From the IMG/VR virus record IMGVR_UViG_3300009678_000018, positions 1-47,355 of that record: 47,355 nt of DNA, one strand, 5' to 3'. This DNA is from a virus. The notes below the pieces were generated by a model. That model was not told the origin of the DNA. It worked only from the letters and a program-made list of their open reading frames with translations, and searched no databases. Position numbers and translations under genes: made by a program. Positions 8,298 through 35,643 of the stretch are shown here, one piece after another (positions within the stretch are counted from its first letter, which is position 1; the number at the start of each line of letters is the position of its first letter).

Positions 8298-9668
8298 ATG
8301 TTGCATCGTTCCCAGGGAATGCTCGCCGCCCTCGCCGCGCTCGTCGCGTCGAGCCTCGAGCGCCAGCACATGCCCGGCGCGGACCCGACGTCGTGGGGTC
8401 CGAACCTCAAAGAAACGTACGACACCGCGTTCCGCAACCAGCTCAGCGAGGACCACATCGTTGAGTCCTTCATGCGCTCCGACACGAAATCGGAGAAGTG
8501 GGAAGGCAAGGAACGCGTCATCCCCAACAAGATCGGGCGCAACCACTCCAGCGCGTCGATCGGCGTCGGCGGCCGGCTGCCGCAGGCCGGGCGCCAGCAG
8601 TGGAAGGAATACCGCGTCGGGGCGCGGGACACGTACACGCGCGTCGGCTTCGAGCGGTACGTCATGGAGCAGACGAAGAACAAGAAGGGCGCCTTCGCTG
8701 AGGTCGTCGCGACCGAAATGGAGCTCGCCTACGAGGATCTGCTCTTCCACCGCAACCGCGTCATGTGGGGCACGGGCTCGGGCGTCCTCGCGCTCGTCAA
8801 CGGCGCGCACGTCGCCACGACCACGCTCGAGCTCAAGGCGCCGGGCAACATCACCGGCACCATCCTCGCGAACCGGTACCTGCACGGCACGACCGACGGT
8901 GGCATGTTCATCGCGATCGTCACGTCGGGCGGGGTGATCGAGGGGACCGCGTTCGTCGAGGGCGCCAACGCGGACGGCACCGACGTCACGCTCGGCACCG
9001 CCGTGACCTGCAGCGACAACTCGCGCGTCGTGGTGGCCACGGCGCCCGATCGGCACTCGCTCGACAAGGAGCCCGAGGGCCTGCTCGCCGGCATCGACGA
9101 CAGCACGTTCGTCGCGACGTACCACGACATGTCGCGCACGACCTACCCGTCGATCAAATCGACCGTCATCACCGGCGTCGGCTCGTTCTCCTTCGATGCA
9201 ATTCAGCAGGGCATCGACGCGCAGATGATCCGCACCGGGAAGACGATCGACTTCTTCCTCTGCGAGTTCGCGGTGCGCCGCGCGTACCTACAACTCCTCG
9301 AACAGGACCGCCGCTACACCGGCGCCGACCTGATGTCGCCTGATGGCGGCACGAAAGTCGTCAAGAACCCGGCCAAGAAGATCGGGGCGAACCGGAAAGC
9401 GATCACGTTCGGGGACCTGCCGATGTTCGAGGACCGCGACGCGCCGTTCGCGATGCTCTTCGGCGTCAACAAGGAAAGCTGGACGCGCTTCGTGCTCGCC
9501 GAGGGCGAATGGGACGACACGGACGGCAAGGTCATGAAGTGGGTGCAGGAGTTCGACCAGTGGACCGCGTTCTACCGGATGATGGACAACTTCCACTGTC
9601 AGTACCCGAATCGCAACATCCGCTGGGAAGGGATCGACGTCGACCAGATCCTCGTCCGCGCGGCCTGA
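8298..9668 (+). CDS. Major capsid protein (putative)
   Basis: AGGAG at 8288-8292, then ATG 8298. 456 aa, directly after the scaffold gene and followed by a strong hairpin. No family motif verified. Confidence 0.6.
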   Translation: MLHRSQGMLAALAALVASSLERQHMPGADPTSWGPNLKETYDTAFRNQLSEDHIVESFMRSDTKSEKWEGKERVIPNKIGRNHSSASIGVGGRLPQAGRQQWKEYRVGARDTYTRVGFERYVMEQTKNKKGAFAEVVATEMELAYEDLLFHRNRVMWGTGSGVLALVNGAHVATTTLELKAPGNITGTILANRYLHGTTDGGMFIAIVTSGGVIEGTAFVEGANADGTDVTLGTAVTCSDNSRVVVATAPDRHSLDKEPEGLLAGIDDSTFVATYHDMSRTTYPSIKSTVITGVGSFSFDAIQQGIDAQMIRTGKTIDFFLCEFAVRRAYLQLLEQDRRYTGADLMSPDGGTKVVKNPAKKIGANRKAITFGDLPMFEDRDAPFAMLFGVNKESWTRFVLAEGEWDDTDGKVMKWVQEFDQWTAFYRMMDNFHCQYPNRNIRWEGIDVDQILVRAA

Positions 9669-12009: not shown

Positions 12010-12300
12010 ATGGCACGACTGAACGGCGCGACGAAGATCAACGCCCCGTACCGCGTCACGGTGGGTGTGGCCGCGGTCCAGCTCACGAGCAACGGCACCG
12101 TGCATGGGCAGCTCATCAAAGCCCTGTGCCCGGGCCAGACCATCTACATCGGCCGGACGTCGGCGGTCACCACGTTGACCGGCTACCCGTTGGCTGACAT
12201 GGAAACTCTCACGCTCGAGGTGGCCGATGTCTCAGAACTCTGGGCGATTGCGGACGCGGCGGCTCAAGAAGTCGCGATCCTGCCGTACAAGTACCTCTAG
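12010..12300 (+). CDS. Small hypothetical structural protein
   Basis: GAGGGAGG precedes ATG 12010. 96 aa. Confidence 0.55.
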   Translation: MARLNGATKINAPYRVTVGVAAVQLTSNGTVHGQLIKALCPGQTIYIGRTSAVTTLTGYPLADMETLTLEVADVSELWAIADAAAQEVAILPYKYL

Positions 12301-14170
12301 CCTGCTGCTCGCGGTCCTGCTGGCCCTCGCGGCGCCGGCGGCCGCGCAGGTCACACCGGGGAACCCGCCGTCGAGTATTCCGCGCGGCGCGTCCCTGCCG
12401 GCGACGTGCGCGGTCGGCCAGGTCTTCTCAAAGACGGCCGCGACGATCGGGCTCTACTTCTGCACGGCCACGAACACGTGGACCCTGCTCGAGGCCGGCG
12501 CCGGCGCCGGCGATGCGCTCGTCGGCGATCCCCTCTCGCAGTTCGCGGCCACGACGCTCGCGCAGTTCTTTGGGGTACTCAGTAACGAAGCGACGGGGCT
12601 GGAGACCTTCGCGGGGACGCCGAGCCTGGCGAACTTCTGCACGCTCCTGACCGGCGAGGGCACGGGGGTCTGCACCGCGCTCGGGATCAACGTGGGCAGC
12701 GCGGGCGCCGTTGTGGTGCTCGACGGGGCCGGCGGGACGCCGTCGTCGCTCACGCTCACTAACGGCATCGGGCTTCCGCTGTCGACGGGCGTCGCGGGCG
12801 ATCTGCCCTTCGCGAACCTCACGCAGGGCGCGGCGCTCTCCGTGCTCGGCGTCGCCGGCAACGCGACCGCGGACGTCGCCGCGATCGCGGCCGCATCCGA
12901 CCATCAGGTCATGCGGCGCTCTGGCACGGCGATCGCGTTCGGCGCCGTCAACTTGGCGAGCTCGGCGGCGGTGACGGGCAACCTGCCGGTCGCGAACCTC
13001 AACAGCGGCACGAGCGCCTCAAGCGCGACGTTCTGGCGCGGCGACGGCACGTGGGCGACTCCGGCTGGTAGCGGCGACGTCCTGCTGTCTGGCACGCCAG
13101 CAGAAGACGACTTGATGTGCAAGCACGCCAGTGCGAACACGATCGTTAGCTGCGGCGTCAATCTCTCGGAGCTTGTCGAGATCACCGATCCGGGCTTCGA
13201 TGCGTTGATCGGCTGGGATGATTCGGCCGGTGCGGAGGCAATGGCGACGGGGTTCGGGTTCAATGCGAGTTTCGCGCTGGAGACGTTGACGCCCGTCACG
13301 GGCGGGGCGCTGCGCTCCGCGACGAGCGCAGGCAACACGGTCAAGCTCCAGGCGTACGACGTCGATGGCACGGCGTACGCCGACTTCTGCACACTCACCG
13401 CGAACAACACGCCGACGATGAGCTGCACCAATCTCACGCTCGTCACGCCAGCGCTGGGGACGCCCGCGTCTGGGGTGGCCACGAACATCACCGGCCTGCC
13501 GATCGCGACGGGTGTCTCTGGCCTCGGCACGGGCGTCGCGACCGCGCTCGCGGTGAACGTCGGCTCGGCAGGCGCGCTGCTCGTGTTCAACGGCGCGCTC
13601 GGGACGCCGACGTCCGGCACGCTGACGTTGCCGTTTCATGCGGTCTTCCTCGCCGGCAACTGCCAGAACGCCACGGCGGCGTCAGGCGGCAACCTACCGA
13701 CCACGCTCGGCGCGGCTGGGGGATGCCGAGGCACGACGGCGGCATCGGGCGATCCGGCCTATGGCGTCGCGGTGTTCGTCACCGGTGGCAATAACACCGA
13801 ATGGCATGGCAACTTTCCGCTGCCGTCCGACTGGACCGGCGCGATCGACGTCGCCGTCCGATGGGTTGCGAACTCGGCGACCACGAATGACGCGGTGTTT
13901 CAAGTGAAATTCGGCTGCACCGCGAACGGTGAAGCCCCGACGTCGGTCTCGCTGAACAACACAGCCTTCACCGCATCGACGAATGCCGGGAGCCTGCTGC
14001 TGAACACGGCGACTAAAACCGCCATCACGACGACCGGCTGCGCGGCGGGTGAGCACGCCTTTTTCATTCTCGACCTCGACACCGACACGTCCGGCGACAC
14101 GTTGGATGTTGACAAGGAAGTGCTAACCATCGACTTCACCTATCGCCGCGCGGTGGTGATTGGTGGGTAA
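12227..14170 (+). CDS. Tail fibre-like protein with a signal-peptide-like N-terminus
   Basis: GAGGTGG precedes ATG 12227 (74-nt overlap with the previous CDS, and no alternative start downstream). N-terminus RLRTRRLKK..LLLAVLLALAAPAAA|Q. The module NVGSAGAxxVxxGAxGTPxSxTLT occurs twice. FWRGDGTWATP is a motif common in phage fibres. Confidence 0.55.
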   Translation: MSQNSGRLRTRRLKKSRSCRTSTSSLLLAVLLALAAPAAAQVTPGNPPSSIPRGASLPATCAVGQVFSKTAATIGLYFCTATNTWTLLEAGAGAGDALVGDPLSQFAATTLAQFFGVLSNEATGLETFAGTPSLANFCTLLTGEGTGVCTALGINVGSAGAVVVLDGAGGTPSSLTLTNGIGLPLSTGVAGDLPFANLTQGAALSVLGVAGNATADVAAIAAASDHQVMRRSGTAIAFGAVNLASSAAVTGNLPVANLNSGTSASSATFWRGDGTWATPAGSGDVLLSGTPAEDDLMCKHASANTIVSCGVNLSELVEITDPGFDALIGWDDSAGAEAMATGFGFNASFALETLTPVTGGALRSATSAGNTVKLQAYDVDGTAYADFCTLTANNTPTMSCTNLTLVTPALGTPASGVATNITGLPIATGVSGLGTGVATALAVNVGSAGALLVFNGALGTPTSGTLTLPFHAVFLAGNCQNATAASGGNLPTTLGAAGGCRGTTAASGDPAYGVAVFVTGGNNTEWHGNFPLPSDWTGAIDVAVRWVANSATTNDAVFQVKFGCTANGEAPTSVSLNNTAFTASTNAGSLLLNTATKTAITTTGCAAGEHAFFILDLDTDTSGDTLDVDKEVLTIDFTYRRAVVIGG

Positions 14171-14174
14171 CGGA

Positions 14175-14891
14175 ATGCGCGCCCTCCGTCGCGGCTTCGC
14201 CGCGCTCCTGCTTGCCCTGCCGTGCTGGGTGTCGCTGCCGGTGGCGGCGGCACGGCGTTCGCTTCCAGCGACAGACACGTTCAACCGTACGGATGCGTCC
14301 TGCGCCTCTGGGGCGCTCGGCGCGAACTGGACGCAGCAGAACGGGGAGTCGCGCATTTTTGACAACGCTTCGCGCGGATGCGCGTCGGTGGGCTCTGTCT
14401 TCTGGAACGCGGATACCTTCTCCAACGATCACTACAGCGAAGCAACTGATGGAGCTGGCGCGTTCGGCCAGTATGCCGTCACGGTGCGTGCCAGCGGGAC
14501 GGGCGGGTCGGCGCATTTCTGCGGGTTGCTCGTGCGCGATGGCCTCGCGATGCGATTTATCGAAGATGACCCAAGCAATGTGCTGGAAACCACCGATGAT
14601 GAGGCGGTCGCTGGGGATACGGTCAAACTGGAGATCGTTGGCACGACGATGACGGCCTACATCAATGACGTCGCAGTGGACACCAATACGGCCTGCACCA
14701 TCACGAGCGGAGGAGCGGCGGGGATCTATCAGACTGTTAGCGTGGACATCGATACGTGGGAGGGCGGCGACGTGGGCGGTGCGGCTCCGTCGAACCTCCC
14801 AGCGATCATCAATTCGCCGATTCGTGGGGGCGGAATCATCGCGTCCTTCCATCTTCTCTCCCTGTTGAGGAGTCCCCGTGCGGGTTTCTAA
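14175..14891 (+). CDS. Jelly-roll (LamG/concanavalin-like) protein with a signal-peptide-like N-terminus
   Basis: MRALRRGFAALLLALPCWVSLPVAAA|RR. The pattern DTFNR..LG.NW......F.....SNDHYSEA....G..AVTVRAS....GD.VKLEIVGTT..AYIND resembles lectin-fold phage proteins. Confidence 0.5.
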   Translation: MRALRRGFAALLLALPCWVSLPVAAARRSLPATDTFNRTDASCASGALGANWTQQNGESRIFDNASRGCASVGSVFWNADTFSNDHYSEATDGAGAFGQYAVTVRASGTGGSAHFCGLLVRDGLAMRFIEDDPSNVLETTDDEAVAGDTVKLEIVGTTMTAYINDVAVDTNTACTITSGGAAGIYQTVSVDIDTWEGGDVGGAAPSNLPAIINSPIRGGGIIASFHLLSLLRSPRAGF

Positions 14892-15828
14892 CGTGGGGGC
14901 TTTTCTTCTCGGGCTGTTCCTGCTCCTGCCCGCGTCAGCGCCGCGCACGCTGCCGACTGGCTACCTGGCCGACTACGACCTGACGCAACTCGTCGGCGGC
15001 GACACCATCGCCAACCTCAGCAGCGACCCGGATGCCCTCCCGGACTTTGTGCTCGACTGCGGCGTCACCGATGTCACGGTGTCAGGCGGGTATATCCAGT
15101 GGAACGCGGGGTATATCGACTCCTACGAGCCGACCGAACTGTTTCCGTTCGACGAGACCAATGGGACGTGTGCGACGACGGGCGGCGGGTTCCCGAACGT
15201 GGCGGGCGATTTCCCAAACACGTTCGCGAGCGGGTCGTATGGCGTGCGTCTGGAGATTGCCGCCGCCCAAGTCACGTCGCTCGGCCAAGGGAGCGACATT
15301 GCGGTCATCACGTTTCGGCGCTCGCCGGATGTCAATGAACACAGCTACGGGCCGCGCTGGTTGACGTTGCATCGCGGCTCGCCGGGGGCGGACCTGCAAA
15401 TCCGCGCGGCTGAGGGGCAGTACTCTGACCCGCCCGGTTCGTTTCAGGACGAGGCGGTCTCGGCAGGATTCATCAGTTCTACGGTAAATCGGGATCTCAC
15501 GATCATTGTCGTGTGGGATCCGGATATCGTGACGCTCTACCTCAATGGGAGCCAAGCCGCCGAGAAAGATCCCCGGACGCAGCCGGATAACGTTGGGACG
15601 CCGGATCAGGCGATCTTCTTCGCCGCGCAGCCGGGATTGATTCACAGTGAGGACCAACAGTTTTTCGTCGGCGCGATCAAACGGTTCGTGGTCTATGACC
15701 GGGTGCTCGACGCGGGCGAGATTGCCGCGCTGCACGCAGACATGGCCGGTGGCGACCCGCCGCGCACGTTCCTCAAGATGATCATTCGTGCGGCGTTGTT
15801 TCTGCCGCCGTCCTGGGGGCGCTCGTGA
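14878..15828 (+). CDS. LamG (Laminin_G_3-like) domain protein with a signal-peptide-like N-terminus
   Basis: GAGGAG precedes GTG 14878. N-terminus MRVSNVGAFLLGLFLLLPASA. The C-terminal LYLNG....FFVGAIKRFVVYDRVLDAGEIAAL is the classic LamG_3 ending. Tail is PPRTFLKMIIRAALFLPP. Confidence 0.6.
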   Translation: MRVSNVGAFLLGLFLLLPASAPRTLPTGYLADYDLTQLVGGDTIANLSSDPDALPDFVLDCGVTDVTVSGGYIQWNAGYIDSYEPTELFPFDETNGTCATTGGGFPNVAGDFPNTFASGSYGVRLEIAAAQVTSLGQGSDIAVITFRRSPDVNEHSYGPRWLTLHRGSPGADLQIRAAEGQYSDPPGSFQDEAVSAGFISSTVNRDLTIIVVWDPDIVTLYLNGSQAAEKDPRTQPDNVGTPDQAIFFAAQPGLIHSEDQQFFVGAIKRFVVYDRVLDAGEIAALHADMAGGDPPRTFLKMIIRAALFLPPSWGRS

Positions 15829-18260
15829 GCGTGCGACTCTTCGCGGTGCTCCTAGCGGTCGCGGCTTTTGCGCCGGGCCCGTTCGTGCCGCCTGCTATCC
15901 CCGACCTCTGCGCGACCGGCACGGCGACGAAGACCGCCAGCACGGGTAACTGGAACACGGCTGGCACCTGGACGCCGAGTGGTGTGCCTGGGGCGGGAGC
16001 GCGCGTCACAATTCCGAATGGCGTCACGGTCACATATGACCTCAGCGCGAGCACGGAAATCGACTGCATTGACCTGCACGGTGTCTTGACATTTGTGACG
16101 GGCTCGGCGACAGCCCTGCATGTCACCAATCTCCAAGTGCGGTCTGATGGAGAACTTATTGTTGGCACCGCAGGGGCACCGATTACCAGCACGGTATCGA
16201 TTGTCATCAATGATGTTGCGCCAGATGCAGGATCGTGCTGCCCTTCCGCCGGGACCGATCCGGAGCAGTACGGCACTGGGATCATCGCGTGGGGTAAGGT
16301 TCAGATGCACGGGGCTACGAAAACCCCCACCTGGGTGCGGTTGACCGAAGAACTCGACGATGGTGAGACGGTCCTGACGGTGGCGACCGCGCCGAGTGGC
16401 TGGGCGAACGGCGACACTATCGTGATTCCAGACACACGCACCTGGACCGGCTTCTCGACGAGCGGCTACACCGGGCAGTACGAGGAAGAAACGATCAGCA
16501 GCATCTCCAGCGCAGACATCACGATTTCGGCGGGGTTGACCTACGACCACGTTGGCGCACGGGATTACCAGGGCACGATTCAGAAGCTGCCGCACGTCGC
16601 GAACCTCACTCGCAACATCGTCGTGAGCAGCGAGAACGCGGCGGGCACCCGTGGCCATCTGCTCTTCACTGACCAAGCTGACGTTGATATTCGATACGCG
16701 CAGTTTTCCGGGCTGGGCCGCACGTTGGCGACCGTCCTGCACTGCACGCTAGGCACCACAGGGACGCTCGCGCTCGGCGGTAATTGCTCCTTTGGCTCTG
16801 GTGATGTCACGCAGATCGGCACCAATCAGATCGGCCGCTACCCCATCCACTTCCACCACTTGCGCGGTCCGGCTTCCCCGCCGTCGAACGGGTATCAGTT
16901 CACATTCACTGGCAACACCGTCAATGACTGCACGAAGTGGTGTGTGGCCGTCCACAATAGCCACTATGGGCTGATTGACAAGAACGTCCTTTACGATGGT
17001 CAAGGCGCTCTCCTCATGACCGAGGACGGGTCCGAGTCGGAGAATGTGATTGAACAGAACATCGCGATCCGCGCGACGGGTAAGGGTGGGCGCGATTCTG
17101 GGGGGCGCGAAGCGGTGGGGTTCTACTTCCGCGGCCCCAATAACTACGTGCGCGACAACGTGGCGTGCAACATCCTCAACGACGACGACCCCAATTCCGG
17201 CTATGGCTTCAAATACTTCTCAGCGCCCGGCGAGGGTGGGGACCCAGGGATCGTCCGCATTCCGAACGCCCCTGGGGTGGACACGACAGACAACGGGAAC
17301 GTGACGCAGGTGAATCTCTGGGAAATCCCGATCCTGGAGTTCGACAACAACGAAGTCTACGGCGCGACCGAATCGGGGATCACGTGGTGGTGGATCGGCG
17401 CGGCCACGAACACGCCCGTGGCGGGCATGGCCACCAGCACCCTCAGCAACACCGTCATCTGGCACATCTCGAACAAAGGGGCATTCAACTACCCGTCCTC
17501 GAAGCTCATCATCGACGGCTTCACGGTCTACGGCCAGCAGTGGGCAGAAAACTATTGCTCGGGGTTTGAGGGGGGGGACTATCTCGCGCACGACCTGATC
17601 TACCGCAACTGGAACATTCAAGGCTGCTGGCACGGCATGCATTTCTCGGTCCGCACGGCATCAACAGCCTCCCCCACCGTGTCGATCCAAACGCTCCAAG
17701 ATTCGTTTTTCGCCAACTACTACCGCGACATCGAGTATTTCTCACAACTCACGTCTGACGGTGATGCGACCGCCAACATGAACGCGCGGCATGTCTATCT
17801 CGACAATGTGGAGTTCGGACCATGGACATCACGCCATGCCTCGCATCGCACGATTGCGATGATCACGTTGCCCGATGAGGGGGGTGTCCTCAACTACACG
17901 AATATTGATGAGATGCAAGTGAGTGGCTACGTCTACGACGGCACTCCAAGTGCGGGTGATTTCCAAGTCTTCTATCCCGCGCAAGCGGCGAGCTATGTGA
18001 TGCCACAGACGGTCATGAGTGGGCCGAATGTGCGAGTCGCCGGGTGCCCCGATGCGGGGCTGACGAATACCCAATGCCTCGCAACCCATGGGGACGCGAT
18101 GGCGGGCGGGATCGCCGATTGTGAAGACTCAACGTCGCGGCCGGAGATTACTGGCTTCACCTGCGATGCCGCCGCCGCGCCACGCCGGTTCCTGAAAGTC
18201 ATTATCCGCACGCTCGACTGGCTGCTGCCCGCGCCGCTGCCGTTTCCGGTGCCGCGCTGA
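15825..18260 (+). CDS. G8-like domain plus right-handed beta-helix protein (putative polysaccharide depolymerase / tailspike)
   Basis: GTGA overlap. N-terminus MSVRLFAVLLAVAAFA. GNWNTAGTWTPSGVPGAGARVTIPNGVTVTYD...CIDLHGVLTF resembles a G8 domain and is followed by PbH1-like repeats. Tail is APRRFLKVIIRTLDWLLP. Confidence 0.55.
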   Translation: MSVRLFAVLLAVAAFAPGPFVPPAIPDLCATGTATKTASTGNWNTAGTWTPSGVPGAGARVTIPNGVTVTYDLSASTEIDCIDLHGVLTFVTGSATALHVTNLQVRSDGELIVGTAGAPITSTVSIVINDVAPDAGSCCPSAGTDPEQYGTGIIAWGKVQMHGATKTPTWVRLTEELDDGETVLTVATAPSGWANGDTIVIPDTRTWTGFSTSGYTGQYEEETISSISSADITISAGLTYDHVGARDYQGTIQKLPHVANLTRNIVVSSENAAGTRGHLLFTDQADVDIRYAQFSGLGRTLATVLHCTLGTTGTLALGGNCSFGSGDVTQIGTNQIGRYPIHFHHLRGPASPPSNGYQFTFTGNTVNDCTKWCVAVHNSHYGLIDKNVLYDGQGALLMTEDGSESENVIEQNIAIRATGKGGRDSGGREAVGFYFRGPNNYVRDNVACNILNDDDPNSGYGFKYFSAPGEGGDPGIVRIPNAPGVDTTDNGNVTQVNLWEIPILEFDNNEVYGATESGITWWWIGAATNTPVAGMATSTLSNTVIWHISNKGAFNYPSSKLIIDGFTVYGQQWAENYCSGFEGGDYLAHDLIYRNWNIQGCWHGMHFSVRTASTASPTVSIQTLQDSFFANYYRDIEYFSQLTSDGDATANMNARHVYLDNVEFGPWTSRHASHRTIAMITLPDEGGVLNYTNIDEMQVSGYVYDGTPSAGDFQVFYPAQAASYVMPQTVMSGPNVRVAGCPDAGLTNTQCLATHGDAMAGGIADCEDSTSRPEITGFTCDAAAAPRRFLKVIIRTLDWLLPAPLPFPVPR

Positions 18261-19222
18261 TGCAGTCCACCCGCAAGGAGTTCCTCGACACGTTCCTCGC
18301 GCGCATGGGCGCGAAGGGCGACGTCGCGCATCGCGACCGCGCGGAGCGCGCGCTCAACCTGGCGCTCGACGAAGTGTGGAAGCGGCACGCCTGGCGCGCG
18401 TTCCTGTCGCCGACGCCGTACACCTTCTCGACGGTGGCCAATGTGCGCACGTATGCCCTGCCGGACTGGTTCGGCCGCGTCGCCACGGGCGAGCAAGCAC
18501 TCCGCAATGCGACCACTGGCGCGCGCATCCGGCCGATCAGCCAGGACGAAGTGACCGCGCTCGACCCGGCGCAGGGCACGGACCTCGAAGCGCCCGGCAC
18601 GCCGCAGCGCTACTTCCTCGCGGGTTCGGTGGGCGTCCACACGCAGCCCGCAGCCGCCGGCGAGGCGCTCGAGGTGGTCTCGACGAGCGTCGCCGACCTG
18701 ACCGTGCGCGCGCTCGTCGAGGGCATCGACAGCACCGGCGACTGGCGCCGCGAGCAAGTCGTGCTCAACGGGACGACGCCGGTCGCGATCGGCACATGGA
18801 AGCACGTCCAGACGTTCGGCAAGTCGGCGCCGGAGGGCCTCGACCCGACGACCGAGTTCACCACGAGCGCGGGCAACGTCACGCTGCGCATCGTCGCCGG
18901 CGCCGTCGAGCTGCAGAAGCTCCTACCGGACGAGTCTGCGCTCGAGCTGCCGACGCTCACGCTCTACCCGATGCCGAATGTCGTCAACGTCATCGCGGTC
19001 CCGACCTTCCGGCGGCCGCGGCGGCTGCGCTACGACGCCGACGTCCTGCCGGCGGATTGGGACGCGGCGCTCGACGAAGACATGACCGTCCAGTGGCGCG
19101 TGCAGGCCGGTGAGATCGCGGCCGACACCAACGTGCCGCGGCCGAAGCTCGTCAGCCTGATCGAGCTCGAGAACCTCAACGCCCCGCGCAGCTATCAGCT
19201 GCCGTTCACGGGGGGCTACTGA
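18260..19222 (+). CDS. Putative neck/adaptor or tail tubular A-like protein
   Basis: TGATG junction. 320 aa. The call rests on position only. Confidence 0.35.
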   Translation: MQSTRKEFLDTFLARMGAKGDVAHRDRAERALNLALDEVWKRHAWRAFLSPTPYTFSTVANVRTYALPDWFGRVATGEQALRNATTGARIRPISQDEVTALDPAQGTDLEAPGTPQRYFLAGSVGVHTQPAAAGEALEVVSTSVADLTVRALVEGIDSTGDWRREQVVLNGTTPVAIGTWKHVQTFGKSAPEGLDPTTEFTTSAGNVTLRIVAGAVELQKLLPDESALELPTLTLYPMPNVVNVIAVPTFRRPRRLRYDADVLPADWDAALDEDMTVQWRVQAGEIAADTNVPRPKLVSLIELENLNAPRSYQLPFTGGY

Positions 19223-21336
19223 TGTCGGCCGCGAGCGGTTACCCGCTCCTCGTCGAGGACTTCTCGCCGGGCTTTCACGCCGCCACGGTGAGCAACCGGC
19301 TCCCGCCGGGTGCGACGCCGGACGCGAAGAACGCGTGGTTCCACCAAGTCGGCTTCACGCCCAAGCGCGCGACGATGGGCCGCCGGCCAGGCGACCGGCT
19401 GATTAACCCGACCGCGATGTCGCTCGGCGATCGCGTCGAGGCGCTCTTCGAGTTTCGGCAGCGCGGCGCCAACCCGAAGCTCCTCGCGATCTGCGATGGC
19501 CTCCTGTATGCGTTCGACGGCATCGACGCCTTTGTCGCGCAGACGATCGCGATCTGGACGCCGGGTGAGCCCGTGCGCGTGTCGATGTTCCGCGAGAACG
19601 TGCTGCTCGTCGACGGCACGGTCAACAAGCGCTGGAACGGCGCCGCCGCGTTCGACCTCGGCACGATCGCGCCCACCGCGGCACCGGCGCTGGCCACCGC
19701 GGCCGGGCCCGGTGTGACGGGCACCTACGAGGGGTACGGCGTCTGGTACGACCCCGTCATGGATCACGAGAGCTCGCCGTCCGCGACCTCGGCCCAAGTT
19801 GTCTTCGCGAACCAGGCGCGGCAGTGGACGAAGCCCGCGGGCGCGCCCGGCGCCGAGTACACGCACTGGCGCATCTACGTGCGGCGTGTCGACACCAACG
19901 AGCTCAACTTCTATCGCGCGGCCACTGAGCCGATCGCGAGCGCCACGCTCACGGAGAACACGTCAGACACCGCGCGCCGCGATCTCGGACCGCAGGCCAA
20001 CGACAACGATCCCCCGAGTGCGCCGTTCGCGATGATCGGCGAGTGGAACGGGTTCGGCATCGGCGTCGAGCCGGATAGCGACGAGTTCGTGGTCTCGAAG
20101 CAGGGCGACCTGCAGAGCTGGCACCCGAAGCACCGCTTTCCGGTCAACCGCGGGAGTGGCACCCCGACGACGACGGCCAAGCCCTACGGCGAAGAGTACC
20201 TGCTGCAGAAGGACTCAGGTACCTGGCGGCTCATCGGCACCAAGGTGCCGTTTATCTGCCGGAAGGTGGTCGGCTCGTTCGGCAACGTCGCGTACGACGC
20301 GTCAATGGAGATCGGGTCGCAGTACTGGGGCTGGGACCGCGAGAAGGGGCCGTACGTCACCGACCTCGTGACCTGGCGGGCGCTCGACGAAGGCCGGCTC
20401 AAGAACTTCCTCGCGACCATCACGCCGACCGCGCTGCACAAGATTCGGATCGGGCATGTGCCCTCCGAGCGGATCGTCTTTTGGGCCGTTCCAGTCGGCG
20501 GCGCGTCGCGCACGCGCGTCCTACTACCCTACCAGTACGAGCTCGACGCCTGGCTGCCGCCGATCGAGGGCCTTGAGTACAGCGCGTTCTGCACGTTCAC
20601 CGACCCGACATCCGCCACCCTCGCGACGTACGCCGGCGACGAGTGGGGGCGGGTCCATCGGCTCTTCATTGGCGACCGGCAGAGCGTGCCCACGACGAAC
20701 CCCATGTCGACGCTCACGGGCACGGCGACCGCCGCCACGGCCTCGACGATCACCGACGCTGGCGCGGCCTTCTACACGACCGGCAGCGGCCTCGCGGGGC
20801 TACCCGTGGCCGTGCGGTCGCCCGCCGGGGATTGGCAGTGGCGGCGGATCGCGTCGAACACGGGGACCGTGCTTACCCTCGACACCGTCAACGGCGCGCC
20901 GTTCTCGCCGGCGCCGGCCGCCGGCTGGACGTACTACGTCGGCGGCATCGAGTGGTACCAATGGACGCCGGTGCTCGACGTCGGCGATCCGTTCCTCGAG
21001 AAGCTGCTCCATGACCTGCACATTGCCGCGCTGGCGCCGACGAGTGCGCTCGCGTTGTCGGTCGACGTGCGCGTCAACGGCGACCTGGCCAGCGTGCGGC
21101 CAACGCTTGAGTTCGCCTTCTCGGCGGGTTCCGGCGGCGTGTGGGGCGTCTCGACGTGGGGCTCGGCCGTGTGGGGCGGCGCCGCGCAACGGCCGTCGAA
21201 ACAAAGCCTCGGGCGCACCGTCGAGAGCGTTCAGTTTCGGTTTCGCAACTTCACGCCGGACGCGCGCGTCATCCTGTCGGCCTACGCGCTTGGCGCCGAT
21301 CCGAACGTGCGCCGACGGTCAGTGGGAGGCGCCTGA
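19222..21336 (+). CDS. Putative large tail (nozzle / tubular B-like) protein
   Basis: TGATG junction. 704 aa. The call rests on position and size only. Confidence 0.35.
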   Translation: MSAASGYPLLVEDFSPGFHAATVSNRLPPGATPDAKNAWFHQVGFTPKRATMGRRPGDRLINPTAMSLGDRVEALFEFRQRGANPKLLAICDGLLYAFDGIDAFVAQTIAIWTPGEPVRVSMFRENVLLVDGTVNKRWNGAAAFDLGTIAPTAAPALATAAGPGVTGTYEGYGVWYDPVMDHESSPSATSAQVVFANQARQWTKPAGAPGAEYTHWRIYVRRVDTNELNFYRAATEPIASATLTENTSDTARRDLGPQANDNDPPSAPFAMIGEWNGFGIGVEPDSDEFVVSKQGDLQSWHPKHRFPVNRGSGTPTTTAKPYGEEYLLQKDSGTWRLIGTKVPFICRKVVGSFGNVAYDASMEIGSQYWGWDREKGPYVTDLVTWRALDEGRLKNFLATITPTALHKIRIGHVPSERIVFWAVPVGGASRTRVLLPYQYELDAWLPPIEGLEYSAFCTFTDPTSATLATYAGDEWGRVHRLFIGDRQSVPTTNPMSTLTGTATAATASTITDAGAAFYTTGSGLAGLPVAVRSPAGDWQWRRIASNTGTVLTLDTVNGAPFSPAPAAGWTYYVGGIEWYQWTPVLDVGDPFLEKLLHDLHIAALAPTSALALSVDVRVNGDLASVRPTLEFAFSAGSGGVWGVSTWGSAVWGGAAQRPSKQSLGRTVESVQFRFRNFTPDARVILSAYALGADPNVRRRSVGGA

Positions 21337-21647
21337 TGCCCGGCCCGTACTCCACCCCAGCGACGGAGGCCGCGATTGCGCGCGCGATCGATGACGAGCG
21401 CGGGGCCATCCTCGCCGAGGGCCCGGTGCTCGAGGTCTACTTTCCGGTCGCCGGCACGCGGCTCGACGTCGCGCACCGGCTCGGCGCGACGCCGCAGGGC
21501 TACGTCACGCTACTCGAAGTCGGCGGGTCTGTGCGCGGTATCGACGTCCCGCAGTGGACCCCCGAGCTCGCCTATCTCGTCGCCGACGCGAACCACACAC
21601 GCGCGCGGCTGTTCTTCGTCGTCACGGAGGTTCCGATCAATGCGTAA
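21336..21647 (+). CDS. Hypothetical protein (103 aa)
   Basis: TGATG junction, in frame with track ORF 21141..21647 (MPGPYSTPATEAAIARAIDD...). Confidence 0.5.
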   Translation: MPGPYSTPATEAAIARAIDDERGAILAEGPVLEVYFPVAGTRLDVAHRLGATPQGYVTLLEVGGSVRGIDVPQWTPELAYLVADANHTRARLFFVVTEVPINA

Positions 21648-22857
21648 GCTGCTTCTCGCCCTGGCGCTCGTGCTGGCGTGCGCTCCGCGCGCGGCCGCCC
21701 AGATCACGCCGACCTACTCTTTTGTGGCGGGCACGGTCATCAATCCGGACGAGGTCAACGCGAACTTCGCGCTGCTCGGCAACGCGCTGAATCGCACCGG
21801 CGGGACGATGACCGGCACGCTGACGACTCTAGATCTCCTGCCGGACGGCGATGGCACGCGGGACCTGGCGGCCACCGGCACGCGCTATCGCGATCTCTGG
21901 CTCGGGCGTAACGCGACCATCGGGGGCACGCTCAGCGTGACGGGCGTGACGGCGTTTGGTTCCACGCTGACGGTAACGGGCGCGACCTCGCTCAGCTCCA
22001 CGTTGGGCGTGACCGGCGCGACGTCGTTGAACTCCACACTCGCTGTGACCGGCGCCGCAACGCTCAGCGGAGGGCTGTCAGTCACCGGGACCGCCACCGC
22101 GACAACGTTCAGCGGCAGCGGCGCGAGCCTGACGAGCATTCCAGAGACCGCGATCACTGACGGCACGCTCCTCGCGCGGGTCGCCGGCACCGAAACCATC
22201 AGCGGCGGCTGGACCTTCAGTACCACGCCAACGGTCACCGCGGCGCTGACGATGTCACACGCCACCGCCCCGCAGATTTGGCTCTTGGAAAATGATCAAG
22301 CGGTGGGATCGAAAGTGTGGTCGATCTTTGCCAACGGCGCGAATCTCAGCATCGGGATCAACAACGGCGACGACACCCTCGCCGTGTCCGACACCGAAGT
22401 GATGTTCGACCGCTTCGGGAATGCCATCCTCGACGGCAGCGTCTACGAGAGCTCGCGCGGGTTCGCGATGGGCGCGACCCAGACGCGCAGCTTCAGCGCG
22501 GGCAATTACACCGGCTCGGGCGGGGGATCTTGGACAGTTGCCTCCGGGGACATGATCGGCGAAAGCTGGCGAGTGGTCGGCGACACGATGTTCTTCACGG
22601 TGGCGATCGCCACTTCGACGATCAGCGGCACGGTCACGACGCTTCAAGTGGCGATCCCCGGTGGATTCACGGCGGCTGAGACCACTAGCGTGCCGGGTCA
22701 GGTGTTCGACGGGGCCGGGCCGGCCGTCTACAGCACTGCCTGTGGTGTTCCGGACTCAGGCAGCCTAGTGAACATCACGCACCAAAACGGCGCGGCGTTC
22801 GTGACGGGCACGGACAACCAGCAGGTGCGGTGCCAGATTGCCTTTAAGGTGAGCTAA
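21640..22857 (+). CDS. Tail fibre protein with a signal-peptide/lipobox-like N-terminus
   Basis: GGAGG at 21626-30, then ATG 21640. N-terminus MRKLLLALALVLACAPRAAA|QITPTYSFVAGTVINPDEVNANFALLGNAL (typical fibre N-terminal motif), then repeated TLxVTGxT units. Confidence 0.6.
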   Translation: MRKLLLALALVLACAPRAAAQITPTYSFVAGTVINPDEVNANFALLGNALNRTGGTMTGTLTTLDLLPDGDGTRDLAATGTRYRDLWLGRNATIGGTLSVTGVTAFGSTLTVTGATSLSSTLGVTGATSLNSTLAVTGAATLSGGLSVTGTATATTFSGSGASLTSIPETAITDGTLLARVAGTETISGGWTFSTTPTVTAALTMSHATAPQIWLLENDQAVGSKVWSIFANGANLSIGINNGDDTLAVSDTEVMFDRFGNAILDGSVYESSRGFAMGATQTRSFSAGNYTGSGGGSWTVASGDMIGESWRVVGDTMFFTVAIATSTISGTVTTLQVAIPGGFTAAETTSVPGQVFDGAGPAVYSTACGVPDSGSLVNITHQNGAAFVTGTDNQQVRCQIAFKVS

Positions 22858-23210
22858 TGAAAACCACGATCGTGCGTCTCGTCGTCATCCTCGCGCTCTT
22901 TGGAAGCCTCTTCGCCGCCGCGGCGGCCCAAGCGCCCGCGGCGCCGAACGGGAAACCCGTGCCGCCTCCGGCGATGTCCGAGACCGTCAAGCTGCGGCTC
23001 GAGCTCGCGCAGCTCGCCGACGAGCTCGCCGTCGCGAAGGGGCAACTGTCGATCTGCCAGGGCGAGCTCGCGCCGGCCGTGTTCCAGCGCCGCGCGCAGG
23101 AGGTCGCCGGCTCGCGCAGCAAGATCGTCGCGGATTTCGAAGCCGCGAATCCGGGCTTCACCATCGATCTCAAGACGCTCGCGATCATTCCCAAGAAAGG
23201 CGGGAGCTGA
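22857..23210 (+). CDS. Small coiled-coil protein with a signal-peptide-like N-terminus
   Basis: TAATG junction. Translation is MKTTIVRLVVILALFGSLFAAAAA|QAPAAPNGKPVPPP, followed by a helical region. Confidence 0.5.
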   Translation: MKTTIVRLVVILALFGSLFAAAAAQAPAAPNGKPVPPPAMSETVKLRLELAQLADELAVAKGQLSICQGELAPAVFQRRAQEVAGSRSKIVADFEAANPGFTIDLKTLAIIPKKGGS

Positions 23211-35238: not shown

Positions 35239-35643
35239 ATGGAAGGATTATTCGAGTGGCTCGCGCCCGCACTCGCGCCCGTGCGCGACGTCGTCGTCAC
35301 GCTCCTCGTCGGTGTCCTCGTGGCGCTCGCGGTCAAGGGGCTCCGACGGCTGGGCCTCGACGTCGAAGTCAAACAGGAGCAGCAGCTCGGCGCCCTCGCG
35401 CGCCAGGCCGTGCTCTACGTCGAGGAGATCGCGGCGCAGCAGCTCAAGAAGCAGATGCGCACCTGGTCGCCCGATGAAAAGCTCGCGCGTGCCATGCAGG
35501 TCGTGCAAGACAAGTTGCCGAAGGCCGACGCCGGCGACGTCCGACGAGCCGTGCATGCGGCGCTGCCTGACGTGAACGCCGGCGCGACCGTCGTCGTCAA
35601 CGCCGTCGTCACGCCGGCGGCGCGACCGCCGTACGGGATCTGA
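35239..35643 (+). CDS. Putative holin (LL-H-like topology)
   Basis: N-terminal TM segment VVVTLLVGVLVALAV, followed by a charged helical region (QAVLYVEEIAAQQLKKQ...KLARAMQVVQDKLPKA). Confidence 0.45.
   Translation: MEGLFEWLAPALAPVRDVVVTLLVGVLVALAVKGLRRLGLDVEVKQEQQLGALARQAVLYVEEIAAQQLKKQMRTWSPDEKLARAMQVVQDKLPKADAGDVRRAVHAALPDVNAGATVVVNAVVTPAARPPYGI

What the first reader, a model, noticed from the sequence alone, without database searches (positions are those of the whole stretch)
12227..23210. Six tail-module proteins carry Sec-type signal-peptide-like N-termini
Six predicted products begin with a basic n-region, a Leu/Ala-rich h-region and an AxA-type site.

| Start | N-terminus |
|---|---|
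| 12227 | ..LLLAVLLALAAPAAA\|Q |
| 14175 | MRALRRGFAALLLALPCWVSLPVAAA\|R |
| 14878 | ..AFLLGLFLLLPASA\|P |
| 15825 | MSVRLFAVLLAVAAFA\|P |
| 21640 | MRKLLLALALVLACAPRAAA\|Q (also lipobox-like) |
| 22857 | ..LVVILALFGSLFAAAAA\|Q |

Tailed-phage virions assemble in the cytoplasm, so exported fibres, lectin-fold proteins and a depolymerase in the middle of the tail module are not what standard models predict.

There are three possible explanations.

- The proteins are secreted or anchored glycan-binding enzymes made alongside virions.
- The hydrophobic N-termini are used as tail-attachment or trimerisation elements.
- There is a membrane-associated assembly step.
Basis: partly seen in the sequence, partly recalled or inferred. 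Interest (0 to 1): 0.75.

Follow-up and report, generated by a model that had tools for sequence, protein, structure and literature searches.

The report
Export signals on phage tail fibres
In an uncultivated group of short-tailed phages, the tail fibre and the sugar-binding and sugar-cutting proteins next to it all start with what look like genuine bacterial export signals, which suggests that these outer tail parts are made outside the cytoplasm where the rest of the virus particle is built.

Summary
The window is a complete ~47-kb temperate SU10/T7-like podophage. Six proteins in its tail module have N-termini far more hydrophobic than almost any internal segment, with a basic n-region and small residues at -3/-1.

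Independent gene calls agree with the starts. Details that do not hold:
- The p5 lipobox is not conserved.

Comparative data show this is not chance.
- **p5 (post-nozzle fibre):** 77 homologues carry a prefix that varies in sequence but keeps its pattern. It has a median length of 21 aa, with -3 A/V 94%, -1 A/G 100% and +1 Q 100%. All 12 related phage genomes have it.
- **p4:** it belongs to a mostly cellular family of signal-bearing G8/beta-helix proteins, and two members examined lie in exopolysaccharide loci.
- **p2:** a CBM66-like lectin whose relatives mostly lack the signal.
- **Cysteines:** signal-bearing versions have paired cysteines (p5 family 66 even vs 2 odd). Signal-less relatives do not.

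Core virion proteins lack such signals. I conclude these are real Sec-type export signals. That exported fibres join particles only at lysis is inferred and untested. I found no precedent for tailed phages.

The parts
12227..14170 (+). p1: 647-aa (or 640-aa from TTG 12248) fibre-like protein. Long basic n-region, h-region LLLAVLLALAA, AAA|Q site after residue 40, then a small two-Cys module (LPATC...FC) and fibre-shaft repeats with an internal duplication.
   Evidence: matrix score 32.1, the highest; shaft repeats are shared with many signal-less phage fibres, while the nearest relatives share the signal plus the Cys module; 12 Cys in the mature part, in closely spaced pairs.
12227..12346 (+). 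p1 signal-peptide coding segment (residues 1-40). The first 74 nt overlap the upstream gene 12010-12300.
   Evidence: The same 74-nt overlap with a homologous upstream gene (58% identity) occurs in related phage L005, where the downstream mature protein is unrelated.
14175..14891 (+). p2: 238-aa CBM66-like / ConA-like beta-sandwich lectin. Signal MRALRRGFAALLLALPCWVSLPVAAA|RR (residues 1-26, nt 14175-14252), with a disordered C-terminal tail carrying IINSPIRGGG.
   Evidence: Family profile against PDB levanase CBM66, E 3e-6. AF2 model pLDDT 80, Foldseek 4b1l E 6.6e-8. Of the short relatives, 92 start directly at M[AS]LPATD with no signal and 29 carry a signal ending just before LPATD.
14878..15828 (+). 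p3: 316-aa protein with a LamG/ConA-like lectin domain. Signal MRVSNVGAFLLGLFLLLPASA (nt 14878-14940).
   Evidence: Pfam Laminin_G_3, E 1e-7. GAGGAG ribosome-binding site 5 nt upstream of the GTG.. C-terminal PRTFLKMIIR motif shared with p4.
15825..18260 (+). p4: 811-aa G8 + CEMIP-type right-handed beta-helix protein, a putative exopolysaccharide glycanase. Short signal MSVRLFAVLLAVAAFA (nt 15825-15872) directly before the family's conserved IPDxCA motif.
   Evidence: Pfam G8 8.6e-19 and CEMIP_beta-hel 2.1e-20. 737 homologues at about 40% identity, most on non-phage contigs and most with a signal in the same position. Homologues P0005 and P0019 sit among Wzy, glycosyltransferase, Bac_transf and deacetylase genes. 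Local GC is 0.59-0.64 against 0.68-0.70 elsewhere.
21640..22857 (+). p5: 405-aa conserved post-nozzle tail fibre. Signal MRKLLLALALVLACAPRAAA|Q (nt 21640-21699), conserved N-domain QITPTYSF...EVNANF...ALNRTGGTMTG, repeat shaft, C-terminal beta-sandwich head with one Cys pair.
   Evidence: family statistics. Synteny in 12 related phage genomes. AF2 model with helix 2-18 and a head of pLDDT about 90. The head resembles viral receptor-binding heads (E about 1e-3, E 5.7e-11). Shaft repeats match cyanophage tail-fibre and structural proteins.
22857..23210 (+). p6: 117-aa small partner of the fibre. Signal or anchor MKTTIVRLVVILALFGSLFAAAAA|Q (nt 22857-22928), Pro/Ala linker, coiled coil, C-terminal NPGFTID motif.
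   Evidence: Homologues with the same build and position occur in L003, L005, L013 and L022. L004 and L022 carry further small signal-bearing proteins in this slot.
12010..12300 (+). Conserved 96-aa gene whose 3' end carries, in another frame, the start and basic n-region of the following signal-bearing gene.
18260..21647 (+). Core tail genes without export signals: adaptor (18260-19222), nozzle (19222-21336) and a 103-aa protein (21336-21647) whose stop overlaps the p5 start by 8 nt.
   Evidence: Pfam SU10_adaptor 7e-7. Nozzle conserved at 28-60% identity in nine related phage sequences aligned, with synteny in 12 genomes.. These proteins contain 0-3 Cys.
35239..35643 (+). Holin-like small membrane protein. 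It is context for a canonical lysis step that would mix cytoplasm and periplasm.
   Evidence: phrog_608 holin, E 1.4e-3, a weak match. Transmembrane segment at residues 18-32.

Best explanation
The six N-termini are functional Sec-type export signals, mostly cleavable by signal peptidase I at AxA|Q. p2 is possibly Tat-dependent, and p3, p4 and p6 are possibly uncleaved anchors.

The element is a complete temperate SU10/T7-like podophage of an uncultivated clade. Contigs of this clade have been binned with Acidobacteriota genomes. In this clade the core particle proteins carry no signal: portal, capsid, adaptor, nozzle and ejection proteins. Every peripheral, glycan-facing protein does carry one:
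- the conserved post-nozzle fibre p5;
- its small partner p6;
- the swappable cargo in front of the adaptor gene. Here that is the fibre-like p1 plus a lower-GC cassette of CBM66-like lectin (p2), LamG lectin (p3) and G8/beta-helix glycanase (p4). The cassette was probably captured from a cellular exopolysaccharide locus together with its signal.

**Proposed mechanism.**
1. Late in infection these proteins are co-expressed with the virion genes.
2. They are threaded through the host Sec translocon into the periplasm and trimmed.
3. They fold there with disulfide bonds.
4. The glycanase and lectins act on envelope polysaccharide.
5. The fibre, through its conserved N-domain that begins exactly at +1 Gln, docks on cytoplasmically built fibre-less particles only once the holin breaches the inner membrane.

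**Shown:** the signal-like anatomy, its clade-wide and family-wide conservation, the homology of p4's signal to that of cellular secreted relatives, and the cysteine pairing.

**Inferred:** actual export, cleavage, and above all the late attachment of the fibres to particles.
For: **Anatomy and starts.**

**p5 family.**
- 84 of 86 alignable homologues have [AG]|Q 26-32 residues before ALNRTGGTMTG.
- 77 have a prefix of 16-37 aa (median 21).
- The prefix has a Leu-rich but sequence-variable core, Pro often at -4/-6, -3 A 77% / V 17%, -1 A 95% / G 5%, +1 Q 100%, and a net positive n-region in 74 of 77.
- Sequence conservation starts exactly at +1.

**Synteny.** All 12 related phage genomes recovered by fibre or by nozzle have the signal on the post-nozzle fibre. 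L004 has no other receptor-binding candidate.

**p4.** Most of 119 homologues, largely on non-phage contigs, carry a signal immediately before the conserved IPDFCA motif. Two lie in exopolysaccharide loci.

**Cysteines.**
- Signal-bearing proteins of the window have 1.54% Cys against 0.48% in the other structural proteins.
- Mature Cys counts are 12, 4, 2 and 2 for p1, p2, p3 and p5.
- In the p5 family, members with Cys are 66 even and 2 odd. Signal-less fibres hit by p1 are 32 even and 46 odd.
- In the p2 family, signal-bearing members are 20 even / 6 odd and signal-less members are 25 even / 47 odd.
- The motif ALNRTGG becomes ACNRTGC with both Cys in 6 cases and a single Cys in none.

**Fibre identity of p5.**

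**Operon structure.** There are no promoter- or terminator-like sites around p2-p4, and gene junctions overlap, so they are co-expressed with late genes.

**Precedents.** Sec-exported phage-like trimeric fibres can function outside the cytoplasm, as with the Bdellovibrio MAT fibres (PMC10769870). A tailspike-like EPS glycanase with an export signal is known: WceF (PMC7949094).
Against: - No dedicated predictor (SignalP, DeepTMHMM) and no experiment was available. My hydrophobicity and matrix scores do not separate cleaved signals from membrane anchors (one search also flags small transmembrane proteins and the capsid N-terminus).
- p3 and p4 have Pro at +1 of the obvious site.
- p2 has Arg-Arg at +1/+2, which hampers Sec export in E. 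coli (established knowledge).
- p6 could be an anchor.
- p4's low GC suggests recent capture, so its signal could be an unpurged relic.
- Cysteine pairing could reflect oxidation after release rather than periplasmic folding. The parity statistics count related sequences as independent.
- I found no tailed phage reported to export virion proteins.
- Nothing shows that p1-p6 are in the particle at all.
- The host is known only from metagenomic binning.
Confidence: 0.55

Rival explanations
1. The signals work, but the exported proteins never join the particle. They are accessory factors made during late infection or lysogeny. On this view they thin or remodel the host's exopolysaccharide to help release. 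They could also stop progeny sticking to debris, mask receptors against superinfection, or decorate the lysogen's surface. The true receptor-binding element is the nozzle or another protein.
For: - p2-p4 look like a captured cellular cassette with lower GC.
- The cargo slot before the adaptor gene varies between related phages and is empty in L004.
- p2's fold is a free-standing carbohydrate-binding module.
- Signal-bearing accessory genes beside tail genes are known: lambda lom and T5 llp (my own knowledge).
- Bdellovibrio displays phage-like fibres on its own surface.
Against: - p5 is a core gene fixed between the nozzle and the ejection proteins in all 12 genomes.
- p5 has the classic fibre layout of conserved N-domain plus variable tip and a receptor-binding-head-like C-terminus.
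- L004 would be left with no fibre at all.
- There are no independent promoter or terminator signals around the cassette.
Confidence: 0.25
2. The hydrophobic N-termini are inserted in the inner membrane but not cleaved (signal anchors). Fibres and enzymes stay tethered to the membrane, and tail completion is a membrane-associated step.
For: - Pro at +1 in p3 and p4 and the long h-region of p6.
- L020 carries a signal-bearing cargo protein that also ends in a hydrophobic stretch plus KRA.
- Membrane-associated steps exist in T4 head and baseplate assembly (my own knowledge).
Against: - An N-in signal anchor puts the mature domain in the periplasm, away from the cytoplasmic tail.
- The near-invariant small residues at -3/-1 and Gln at +1 in 77 p5 relatives point to cleavage.
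- h-regions are mostly 10-15 residues, short for stable anchors.
Confidence: 0.1
3. The N-termini are never exported. They stay in the cytoplasm and serve as trimerisation or tail-docking helices.
For: - AF2 models the p5 prefix as a helix.
- Tail fibres normally dock by their N-termini (established knowledge).
- Tailed-phage assembly is cytoplasmic in every studied case.
Against: - The helix sequence is not conserved, whereas the flanking -3/-1/+1 positions are.
- The same kind of prefix sits on unrelated proteins: lectins, a glycanase and small coiled-coil proteins.
- p4's prefix is positionally homologous to the signals of cellular secreted enzymes.
- Cysteine pairing tracks presence of the prefix.
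Confidence: 0.07
4. Artefact: wrong start codons, or chance Ala/Leu-rich stretches in a 68% GC genome.
For: - High GC enriches Ala, Leu, Arg, Gly and Pro.
- The p1 start is ambiguous between 12227 and 12248, and it overlaps the upstream gene.
Against: - Internal segments this hydrophobic are about 0.08% of windows in the same proteins.
- There are no alternative in-frame starts between the prefix and the conserved mature sequence.
- Independent gene calls agree.
- The feature is conserved in about 77 p5 relatives and in 12 genomes, including one with 57% GC (L006).
Confidence: 0.03

Closest known systems
Sec-type (signal peptidase I) signal peptides of Gram-negative exported proteins
   Same: A basic n-region, a 10-15-residue Leu/Ala-rich h-region, often a helix-breaking Pro, small residues at -3/-1, variable sequence with a conserved pattern, and position at the extreme N-terminus.
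   Different: They sit on proteins encoded in the tail module of a tailed phage, including its conserved fibre. Export and cleavage have not been shown. Two of the six have Pro at +1 of the obvious site.
Bdellovibrio bacteriovorus MAT (mosaic adhesive trimer) fibres (PMC10769870)
   Same: The architecture is signal peptide, then a conserved N-terminal domain, then a phage-tail-fibre-like trimeric shaft, then a variable tip. Some members have an S74 chaperone domain, as do some p5 relatives.
   Different: MATs are chromosomal genes of a predator and sit on its cell surface. The p5 family is encoded between the nozzle and ejection-protein genes of phages. There is no detectable sequence relationship. 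The only Foldseek hit, to Bd2133, had probability 0.08.
Exopolysaccharide-locus glycanases with export signals, e.g. Pantoea stewartii WceF (PMC7949094)
   Same: A beta-helix, tailspike-like enzyme with an N-terminal export signal, encoded in an EPS biosynthesis cluster. Cellular relatives of p4 have exactly this context.
   Different: WceF uses a Tat signal and a different beta-helix family. p4 is G8 + CEMIP-type and is carried by a phage inside its late operon, with a phage-specific C-terminal extension.
Signal-bearing accessory genes in or next to tail genes (lambda lom and bor, T5 llp, phi80 cor; my own knowledge)
   Same: Exported proteins encoded beside receptor-binding genes. p2-p4 share the hallmark of deviating base composition.
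   Different: Those are single small outer-membrane proteins or lipoproteins, often with their own promoters. Here there are six genes, translationally coupled to virion genes, with no own promoter or terminator. They include fibre-like proteins that are core to the clade.
Tail fibres of T7 (gp17) and SU10-like podophages (PMC9509320 for SU10)
   Same: The adaptor-nozzle gene pair, and a fibre with a conserved N-terminal domain, a repeat shaft and a variable head.
   Different: Known fibres have no export signal and attach in the cytoplasm. Most fibres that share p1's shaft repeats also lack one.
Filamentous phage coat proteins g8p and g3p (Inoviridae; established knowledge)
   Same: Virion proteins made with Sec signal peptides and assembled onto the particle outside the cytoplasm.
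   Different: Inoviruses are extruded through the envelope without lysis and have no head-tail architecture. Nothing comparable is described for Caudoviricetes.

Membership tests
Sec / signal peptidase I signal peptide | Net positive n-region at the extreme N-terminus of the translated product | tested here: met
   All six have at least +1 before the h-region, and p1 has +8. 74 of 77 p5 relatives are net positive. Starts are confirmed by independent calls and by the lack of downstream alternatives.
Sec / signal peptidase I signal peptide | Uncharged hydrophobic h-region of roughly 7-15 residues | tested here: met
   12-residue KD maxima are 2.30-3.06, against 9 of 11,101 internal windows at or above 2.3. 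The median best 10-residue KD mean in the p5 family is 2.74.
Sec / signal peptidase I signal peptide | c-region with small neutral residues at -3 and -1, and no Pro at +1 | tested here: inconclusive
   Met for p1, p2, p5 and p6 (AAA|Q, AAA|R). In the p5 family -3 is A/V in 94% and -1 is A/G in 100%. For p3 and p4 the obvious sites have Pro at +1, and only weaker upstream sites (LPA|S, VAA|F) comply.
Sec / signal peptidase I signal peptide | Actual translocation and cleavage | not testable with these tools
   Needs reporter fusions or N-terminal proteomics. Paired-cysteine statistics give only indirect support.
Lipoprotein (signal peptidase II) signal | Lipobox [LVI][ASTVI][GAS]C with the invariant Cys at +1 | tested here: not met
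   p5 has VLAC, with Leu at -2, which is non-canonical. A lipobox-like string occurs in only 2 of 59 relatives. No lipobox ORF lies near p6 or in the lysis region.
Tat signal peptide (p2 only) | Twin-arginine motif S/T-R-R-x-F-L-K before a weakly hydrophobic h-region | tested here: inconclusive
   p2 has L-R-R-G-F-A-A, the least hydrophobic h-region of the six (2.30) and basic residues after the site. No NCBIfam Tat model matched at E<=1. The close relative P0378 has KR rather than RR.
Phage tail fibre / receptor-binding protein (p5) | Conserved N-terminal domain, repeat shaft and variable C-terminal head, encoded next to tail-tube genes | tested here: met
   (N-domain conserved, rest variable). 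(shaft repeats match annotated cyanophage fibre and structural proteins). (head fold). (fixed position after the nozzle).
Phage tail fibre / receptor-binding protein (p5) | Physical presence on the virion and a role in adsorption | not testable with these tools
   No cultured relative exists. The INPHARED collection holds none.
Moron / lysogenic-conversion cassette (p2-p4) | Deviating base composition and cellular ancestry | tested here: met
   GC is 0.59-0.64 against 0.68-0.70. The p4 family is mostly cellular.
Moron / lysogenic-conversion cassette (p2-p4) | Own promoter and terminator allowing expression from the prophage | tested here: not met
   No plus-strand sigma-70-like promoter was found. 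Terminator-like sites were fewer than in shuffles (5 against 9.6) and none flanks the cassette. Start and stop codons overlap those of neighbours. The scan covers only sigma-70-type consensus.
i-spanin (p6) | N-terminal membrane helix plus periplasmic coiled coil, paired with an o-spanin lipoprotein gene, in the lysis cassette | tested here: not met
   The helix and coiled coil are present. There is no lipobox ORF embedded or adjacent. The gene sits 12 kb from the holin-like gene, directly after the fibre, in every relative.
PEP-CTERM / exosortase sorting signal (C-termini of p2-p4 and the L020 cargo) | C-terminal PEP motif, transmembrane helix and basic cluster recognised by the TIGR02595-type model | tested here: not met
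   There were no NCBIfam hits. The hydrophobic tails of p2-p4 are too short, and only L020's PDPWWPLVGLLAVVSALAVKRA looks similar.

The most novel reading that the evidence does not exclude
A lineage of tailed phages builds its particle in two compartments. Head, adaptor, nozzle and ejection proteins assemble in the cytoplasm. The receptor-binding fibre, its helper and the glycan-binding and glycan-degrading appendages are exported by the host Sec system. They are trimmed to an N-terminal Gln, disulfide-bonded in the periplasm, and snap onto the tail only when the holin opens the inner membrane. The signal peptide would then be a built-in part of tail morphogenesis. It would also serve as a portable 'slot' into which new receptor-binding cargo recombines, as the conserved 74-nt start/n-region junction suggests.
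Probability: 0.3. Interest if true: 0.9.

Novelty: new variant of a known kind. Interest (0 to 1): 0.7.

Why it matters
Textbook assembly of tailed phages is entirely cytoplasmic. The absence of signal peptides is even used as an argument that a tail-like protein is of phage origin (PMC6199706).

Here a whole clade of soil or freshwater podophages puts canonical export signals on its conserved fibre and on every peripheral tail-module protein. These signals are conserved in pattern rather than in sequence, and they are accompanied by a paired-cysteine signature.

If export is real, there are three consequences:
- Either fibres are added to particles outside the cytoplasm, which would be a new morphogenetic route, or these phages devote a large part of their late operon to secreted envelope-remodelling proteins.
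- Phages can capture host exopolysaccharide-processing enzymes whole, signal included.
- Filters that discard signal-bearing proteins would miss the receptor-binding proteins of such phages.

The question can be tested directly with reporter fusions and virion proteomics.

Tried and rejected
- **Nozzle protein as a single query against IMG/VR:** nothing found. Alignment-based queries were needed.
- **Isolated-phage collection:** no useful relatives. The portal gave one hit at 27% identity, p4 and p2 gave none, and p5 matched only shaft repeats. No virion proteomics can therefore be borrowed.
- **GTDB genome scan:** one phage-sized contig binned as Acidobacteriota and no integrated prophage. 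The host remains a weak inference.
- **p5 as a lipoprotein:** rejected.
- **p6 as an i-spanin:** rejected, because there is no o-spanin and the location is wrong.
- **p2-p4 as an autonomous moron with its own promoter or terminator:** not supported.
- **Tat and PEP-CTERM models:** no hits.
- **First rule-based signal-peptide caller:** too permissive, since it flagged the capsid protein and others. I replaced it with hydrophobicity statistics and a family-trained matrix. The matrix still cannot tell signals from anchors.
- **Genomic context of signal-less p2 relatives:** the contigs were 1 kb or shorter, so I cannot say whether those are virion proteins.
- **Literature:** six searches found no report of signal peptides on tail fibres of tailed phages. 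The library is limited to open-access papers.

Full report
**What the window is**

The 47,355-base window has 68% GC and nearly all its genes lie on the plus strand. It encodes:
- a large terminase (2645-4357, phrog_979 E 1.6e-21) and a major head protein (8298-9668, phrog_14242 E 2.8e-33);
- a portal (4870-7152, 27% identical to an annotated portal);
- an SU10-type adaptor (18260-19222, Pfam 7e-7);
- a 704-aa nozzle-like protein;
- a run of Cys-free proteins ending in a 1667-aa LPD38 'polyvalent' protein;
- a weak holin match (35239-35643), an integrase (36296-37516, minus strand) and ParB.

The same genome was assembled independently in JGI 3300027573 and ENA ERZ27267619 as contigs of 47,353 and 47,373 bp with different end points. 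This suggests a complete, circularly permuted or terminally redundant temperate podophage. No isolated phage is close to it.

**Check of the observation**

The six ORFs are real, and an independent gene caller gives the same starts for p2-p6. For p1 it chose TTG 12248 rather than ATG 12227. Both starts precede the hydrophobic core. No ATG, GTG or TTG lies between them and the AAA|Q site. Good Shine-Dalgarno-like sequences precede p1, p3, p5 and p6, and the genes abut or overlap their neighbours.

- **Hydrophobicity.** The best 12-residue Kyte-Doolittle means at the six N-termini are 2.30-3.06. Only 9 of 11,101 internal windows of 34 window proteins reach 2.3. This gives a rough chance of 2.8% per protein, so P(>=6 of 23) is about 3e-5.
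- **Family-trained matrix.** A matrix trained only on relatives of p5 scores all six above the 99.99th percentile of 166,892 internal positions. It recognises 74 of 119 N-termini of the mostly cellular p4 family. It also flags ordinary membrane helices, so it is a test of 'signal-or-anchor' rather than of cleavage.

- ASA|P (p3) and AFA|P (p4) put Pro at +1, which signal peptidase I does not accept (established knowledge). Weaker sites exist two residues upstream.
- The p5 'lipobox' VLAC is non-canonical and not conserved.
- p2 has Tat-like traits but no Tat model hit.
- p6 may be an anchor.

**What each protein is**

- **p4** has G8 and CEMIP-type beta-helix domains. It has 737 homologues at about 40% identity over about 94% of its length, many on long non-phage contigs and some named from Gemmataceae. 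Most begin with a signal peptide placed directly before the conserved G-L-P-H-G-I-P-D-F-C-A motif. The p4 equivalent of that motif is PPAIPDLCA. Two cellular homologues sit among Wzy polymerase, glycosyltransferase, Bac_transf, polysaccharide deacetylase and carbamoyltransferase genes. The family therefore looks like exported exopolysaccharide-processing enzymes, functionally comparable to WceF (PMC7949094).
- **p3** has a LamG/ConA-like lectin domain.
- **p2** matches the CBM66 carbohydrate-binding module by profile (E 3e-6) and by fold (model pLDDT 80, Foldseek E 6.6e-8).

The 14-18 kb stretch has lower GC, 0.59-0.64. There are no promoter- or terminator-like sites around it. I read p2-p4 as a cassette captured from a cellular genome and now embedded in the late operon.

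- **p1** shares its shaft repeats with thousands of fibre-like proteins. Most of these begin with ordinary signal-less phage-fibre N-termini. Its nearest relatives share a signal followed by a small two-Cys module, LPxxCxxGQ...C..W.
- **p5** has a C-terminal beta-sandwich head (pLDDT about 90) that resembles viral receptor-binding heads. The PDB matches are weak, with E about 1e-3. They include the TP901-1 and lactococcal phage receptor-binding heads, reovirus sigma1 and the Det7 tailspike. Against predicted viral structures the best match is E 5.7e-11. Its shaft repeats match annotated cyanophage fibre and structural proteins.

**The key comparative result**

Among 86 p5 homologues that can be aligned at the N-terminus:
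- 84 have [AG]|Q 26-32 residues before the invariant ALNRTGGTMTG motif;
- 77 have a full prefix of 16-37 residues (median 21);
- the n-region is net positive in 74 of 77;
- the core is Leu-rich and variable in sequence, with Pro often at -4/-6;
- -3 is Ala in 77% and Val in 17%;
- -1 is Ala in 95% and Gly in 5%;
- +1 is Gln in 100%.

Sequence conservation of the family begins exactly at +1. This is what a cleaved signal peptide looks like, and not what a docking helix looks like.

The genes sit on phage-sized contigs. Every one of 12 distinct related genomes shows the order adaptor, nozzle, ~105-aa protein, signal-bearing fibre, small signal- or anchor-bearing protein(s), ejection proteins. 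These genomes were found either through the fibre motif or through the nozzle.

p6 has homologues in L003, L005, L013 and L022 with the same build: signal, Pro/Ala linker, coiled coil and an NPGW/HPGY motif.

The slot before the adaptor gene is variable. It is empty in L004 and elsewhere is filled with different proteins, most of which carry the same kind of N-terminus. Core proteins do not carry it. L004 has no candidate receptor-binding protein other than the signal-bearing fibre.

**An independent line of evidence: cysteines**

- In the window, the six proteins contain 1.54% Cys against 0.48% in the other 17 structural proteins (Fisher p 8e-7). The adaptor, the 103-aa protein and most ejection proteins have none.
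- After removing the prefix, p1, p2, p3 and p5 have 12, 4, 2 and 2 Cys.
- In the p5 family the mature parts have 0, 2, 4 or 6 Cys in 82 of 84 members. Among members with any Cys, 66 are even and 2 are odd.
- Signal-less fibres retrieved with p1 show no such bias (32 even, 46 odd).
- In the p2 family, signal-bearing members are 20 even / 6 odd and signal-less members are 25 even / 47 odd.
- The invariant motif ALNRTGG changes to ACNRTGC with both Cys in 6 members and one Cys in none.

Paired cysteines that track the presence of the prefix fit folding in an oxidising compartment. Two caveats apply. The sequences are related, so the p-values are inflated. Oxidation after release from the cell is an alternative explanation.

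**Mechanism proposed**

*Shown:* signal-like anatomy, conservation in pattern but not in sequence, positional homology of p4's signal with cellular secreted relatives, restriction to peripheral glycan-facing proteins, and cysteine pairing.

*Inferred:* the host Sec system exports these proteins late in infection. Signal peptidase I trims p1, p5 and probably p6 at AxA|Q. They fold with disulfides in the periplasm. p2-p4 bind and cut envelope polysaccharide. The fibre docks through its conserved mature N-domain onto cytoplasmically assembled, fibre-less particles once the holin opens the inner membrane. In-vitro addition of fibres or tailspikes to fibre-less particles is classical for T4 and P22 (my own knowledge), so late attachment is biochemically plausible.

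I put about 0.75 on 'functional export signals' and about 0.3 on 'exported fibres end up on virions'.

**Rivals**

- **Exported but never virion-bound accessory proteins.** This is plausible for p2-p4. It fits poorly for p5, which is core, fibre-shaped and the only receptor-binding candidate in L004.
- **Uncleaved signal anchors with a membrane-associated assembly step.** The topology argues against this, and so does the -3/-1/+1 conservation.
- **Cytoplasmic docking or trimerisation helices.** The sequence variability argues against this. So do the presence of the prefix on unrelated folds and the cysteine pairing.
- **Artefact.** Internal-window statistics, independent gene calls and conservation in a 57% GC relative argue against this.

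**Comparison with what is known**

- The prefixes meet the sequence definition of Sec/SPase I signals, except for Pro at +1 in p3 and p4. Export itself is untested.
- The nearest architectural analogue of p5 is the cellular MAT fibre family of Bdellovibrio. It has a signal peptide, a conserved N-domain, a phage-like fibre and a variable tip (PMC10769870). There is no sequence relationship between the two families.
- p4's cellular relatives parallel WceF-type enzymes.
- Signal-bearing genes next to tail genes are known as accessory genes (lambda lom, T5 llp; my own knowledge). Those are single small envelope proteins.
- Typical phage genomes carry 0-2 predicted signal peptides (PMC5723332).
- Lack of signals has been used as evidence that a protein is of phage origin (PMC6199706).
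- Only filamentous phages are known to assemble signal-bearing coat proteins outside the cytoplasm.
- I found no report of a tailed-phage fibre family with conserved export signals, within the limits of an open-access library.

**Host**

Three relatives were binned with Acidobacteriota or Vicinamibacterales genomes, always as phage-sized contigs. This is weak evidence. The AxA|Q style of site is also common among the cellular p4 relatives.

**Verdict**

This is a new variant of a known kind: tail fibres and tail-associated glycan-binding proteins that carry conserved export signals. There is a substantial chance that it reflects a new assembly route. Interest 0.7.

Noticed in passing
window 15740-15828 and 18170-18260; also 14780-14891: p3 and p4 end in a shared motif, PRTFLKMIIRAALFLPP against PRRFLKVIIRTLDWLLP (pairwise E 0.003). 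Cellular p4 relatives end earlier, at APRNVRIVTSQ-like strands. p2 and the signal-bearing subset of its family share a different C-terminal motif, IINxPIRGGG, followed by a short hydrophobic, basic tail. These may be docking or sorting elements that go with the N-terminal signal.
   Followed up: partly
window 12227-12300 and L005 3999-4072: The start codon and Arg-rich n-region of the first signal-bearing cargo gene lie in a 74-nt overlap with the 3' end of a conserved upstream gene (58% identical between the two phages). The downstream mature proteins are unrelated. It looks like a fixed junction behind which cargo is exchanged.
   Followed up: partly
L005 3665-4072: The L005 homologue of window gene 12010-12300 has an extra hydrophobic N-terminal extension of about 40 residues ending in TAA|Q, which the window copy lacks.
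   Followed up: no
window 12659-12759 and 13526-13626: p1 contains an internal direct duplication (101 nt, 72% identity, 867 nt apart). Shorter 180-nt-spaced repeats encode the LP.ANL fibre motif.
   Followed up: no
L020 1635-3428: In a related 4.1-kb contig, a 597-aa protein sits between a signal-bearing p2 homologue and an adaptor-like gene. It has a hydrophobic N-terminus and ends in PDPWWPLVGLLAVVSALAVKRA. This resembles a PEP-CTERM-type sorting signal but matched no model.
   Followed up: partly
window 14000-18000: GC drops to 0.59-0.64 across p2-p4, against 0.68-0.70 elsewhere. This is consistent with recent acquisition of the cassette.
   Followed up: partly
window 4749-4825: A tRNA-Met (CAT) gene lies between a small ORF and the portal gene.
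   Followed up: no
window 196-990: A 264-aa protein carries a Cpn10/GroES co-chaperonin domain (E 3.4e-18) behind an Arg-rich N-terminal extension of about 100 residues. The start codon is uncertain.
   Followed up: no
window 27784-32787; L003 and L004 equivalents: A giant Cys-free 'polyvalent' protein with an LPD38 domain ends the ejection-protein block. Relatives of 2300-2400 aa add ART-PolyVal, acetyltransferase or Zeta-toxin-like hits.
   Followed up: no
window 26025-26687: A 220-aa protein in the ejection-protein block has the only strongly hydrophobic internal segment of the structural proteins (VGPTVLVVVIAL, from residue 135). It may be a membrane-inserting ejection protein.
   Followed up: no
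window 2307-2546 and 39071-39289: Two small ORFs (79 and 72 aa) with a single strongly hydrophobic helix. It is uncertain whether they are real genes.
   Followed up: no
window 33202-35978: The probable lysis region holds a DUF5675 protein, a 514-aa protein, a holin-like 134-aa protein and a 111-aa protein. I found no recognisable endolysin family or spanin pair.
   Followed up: partly
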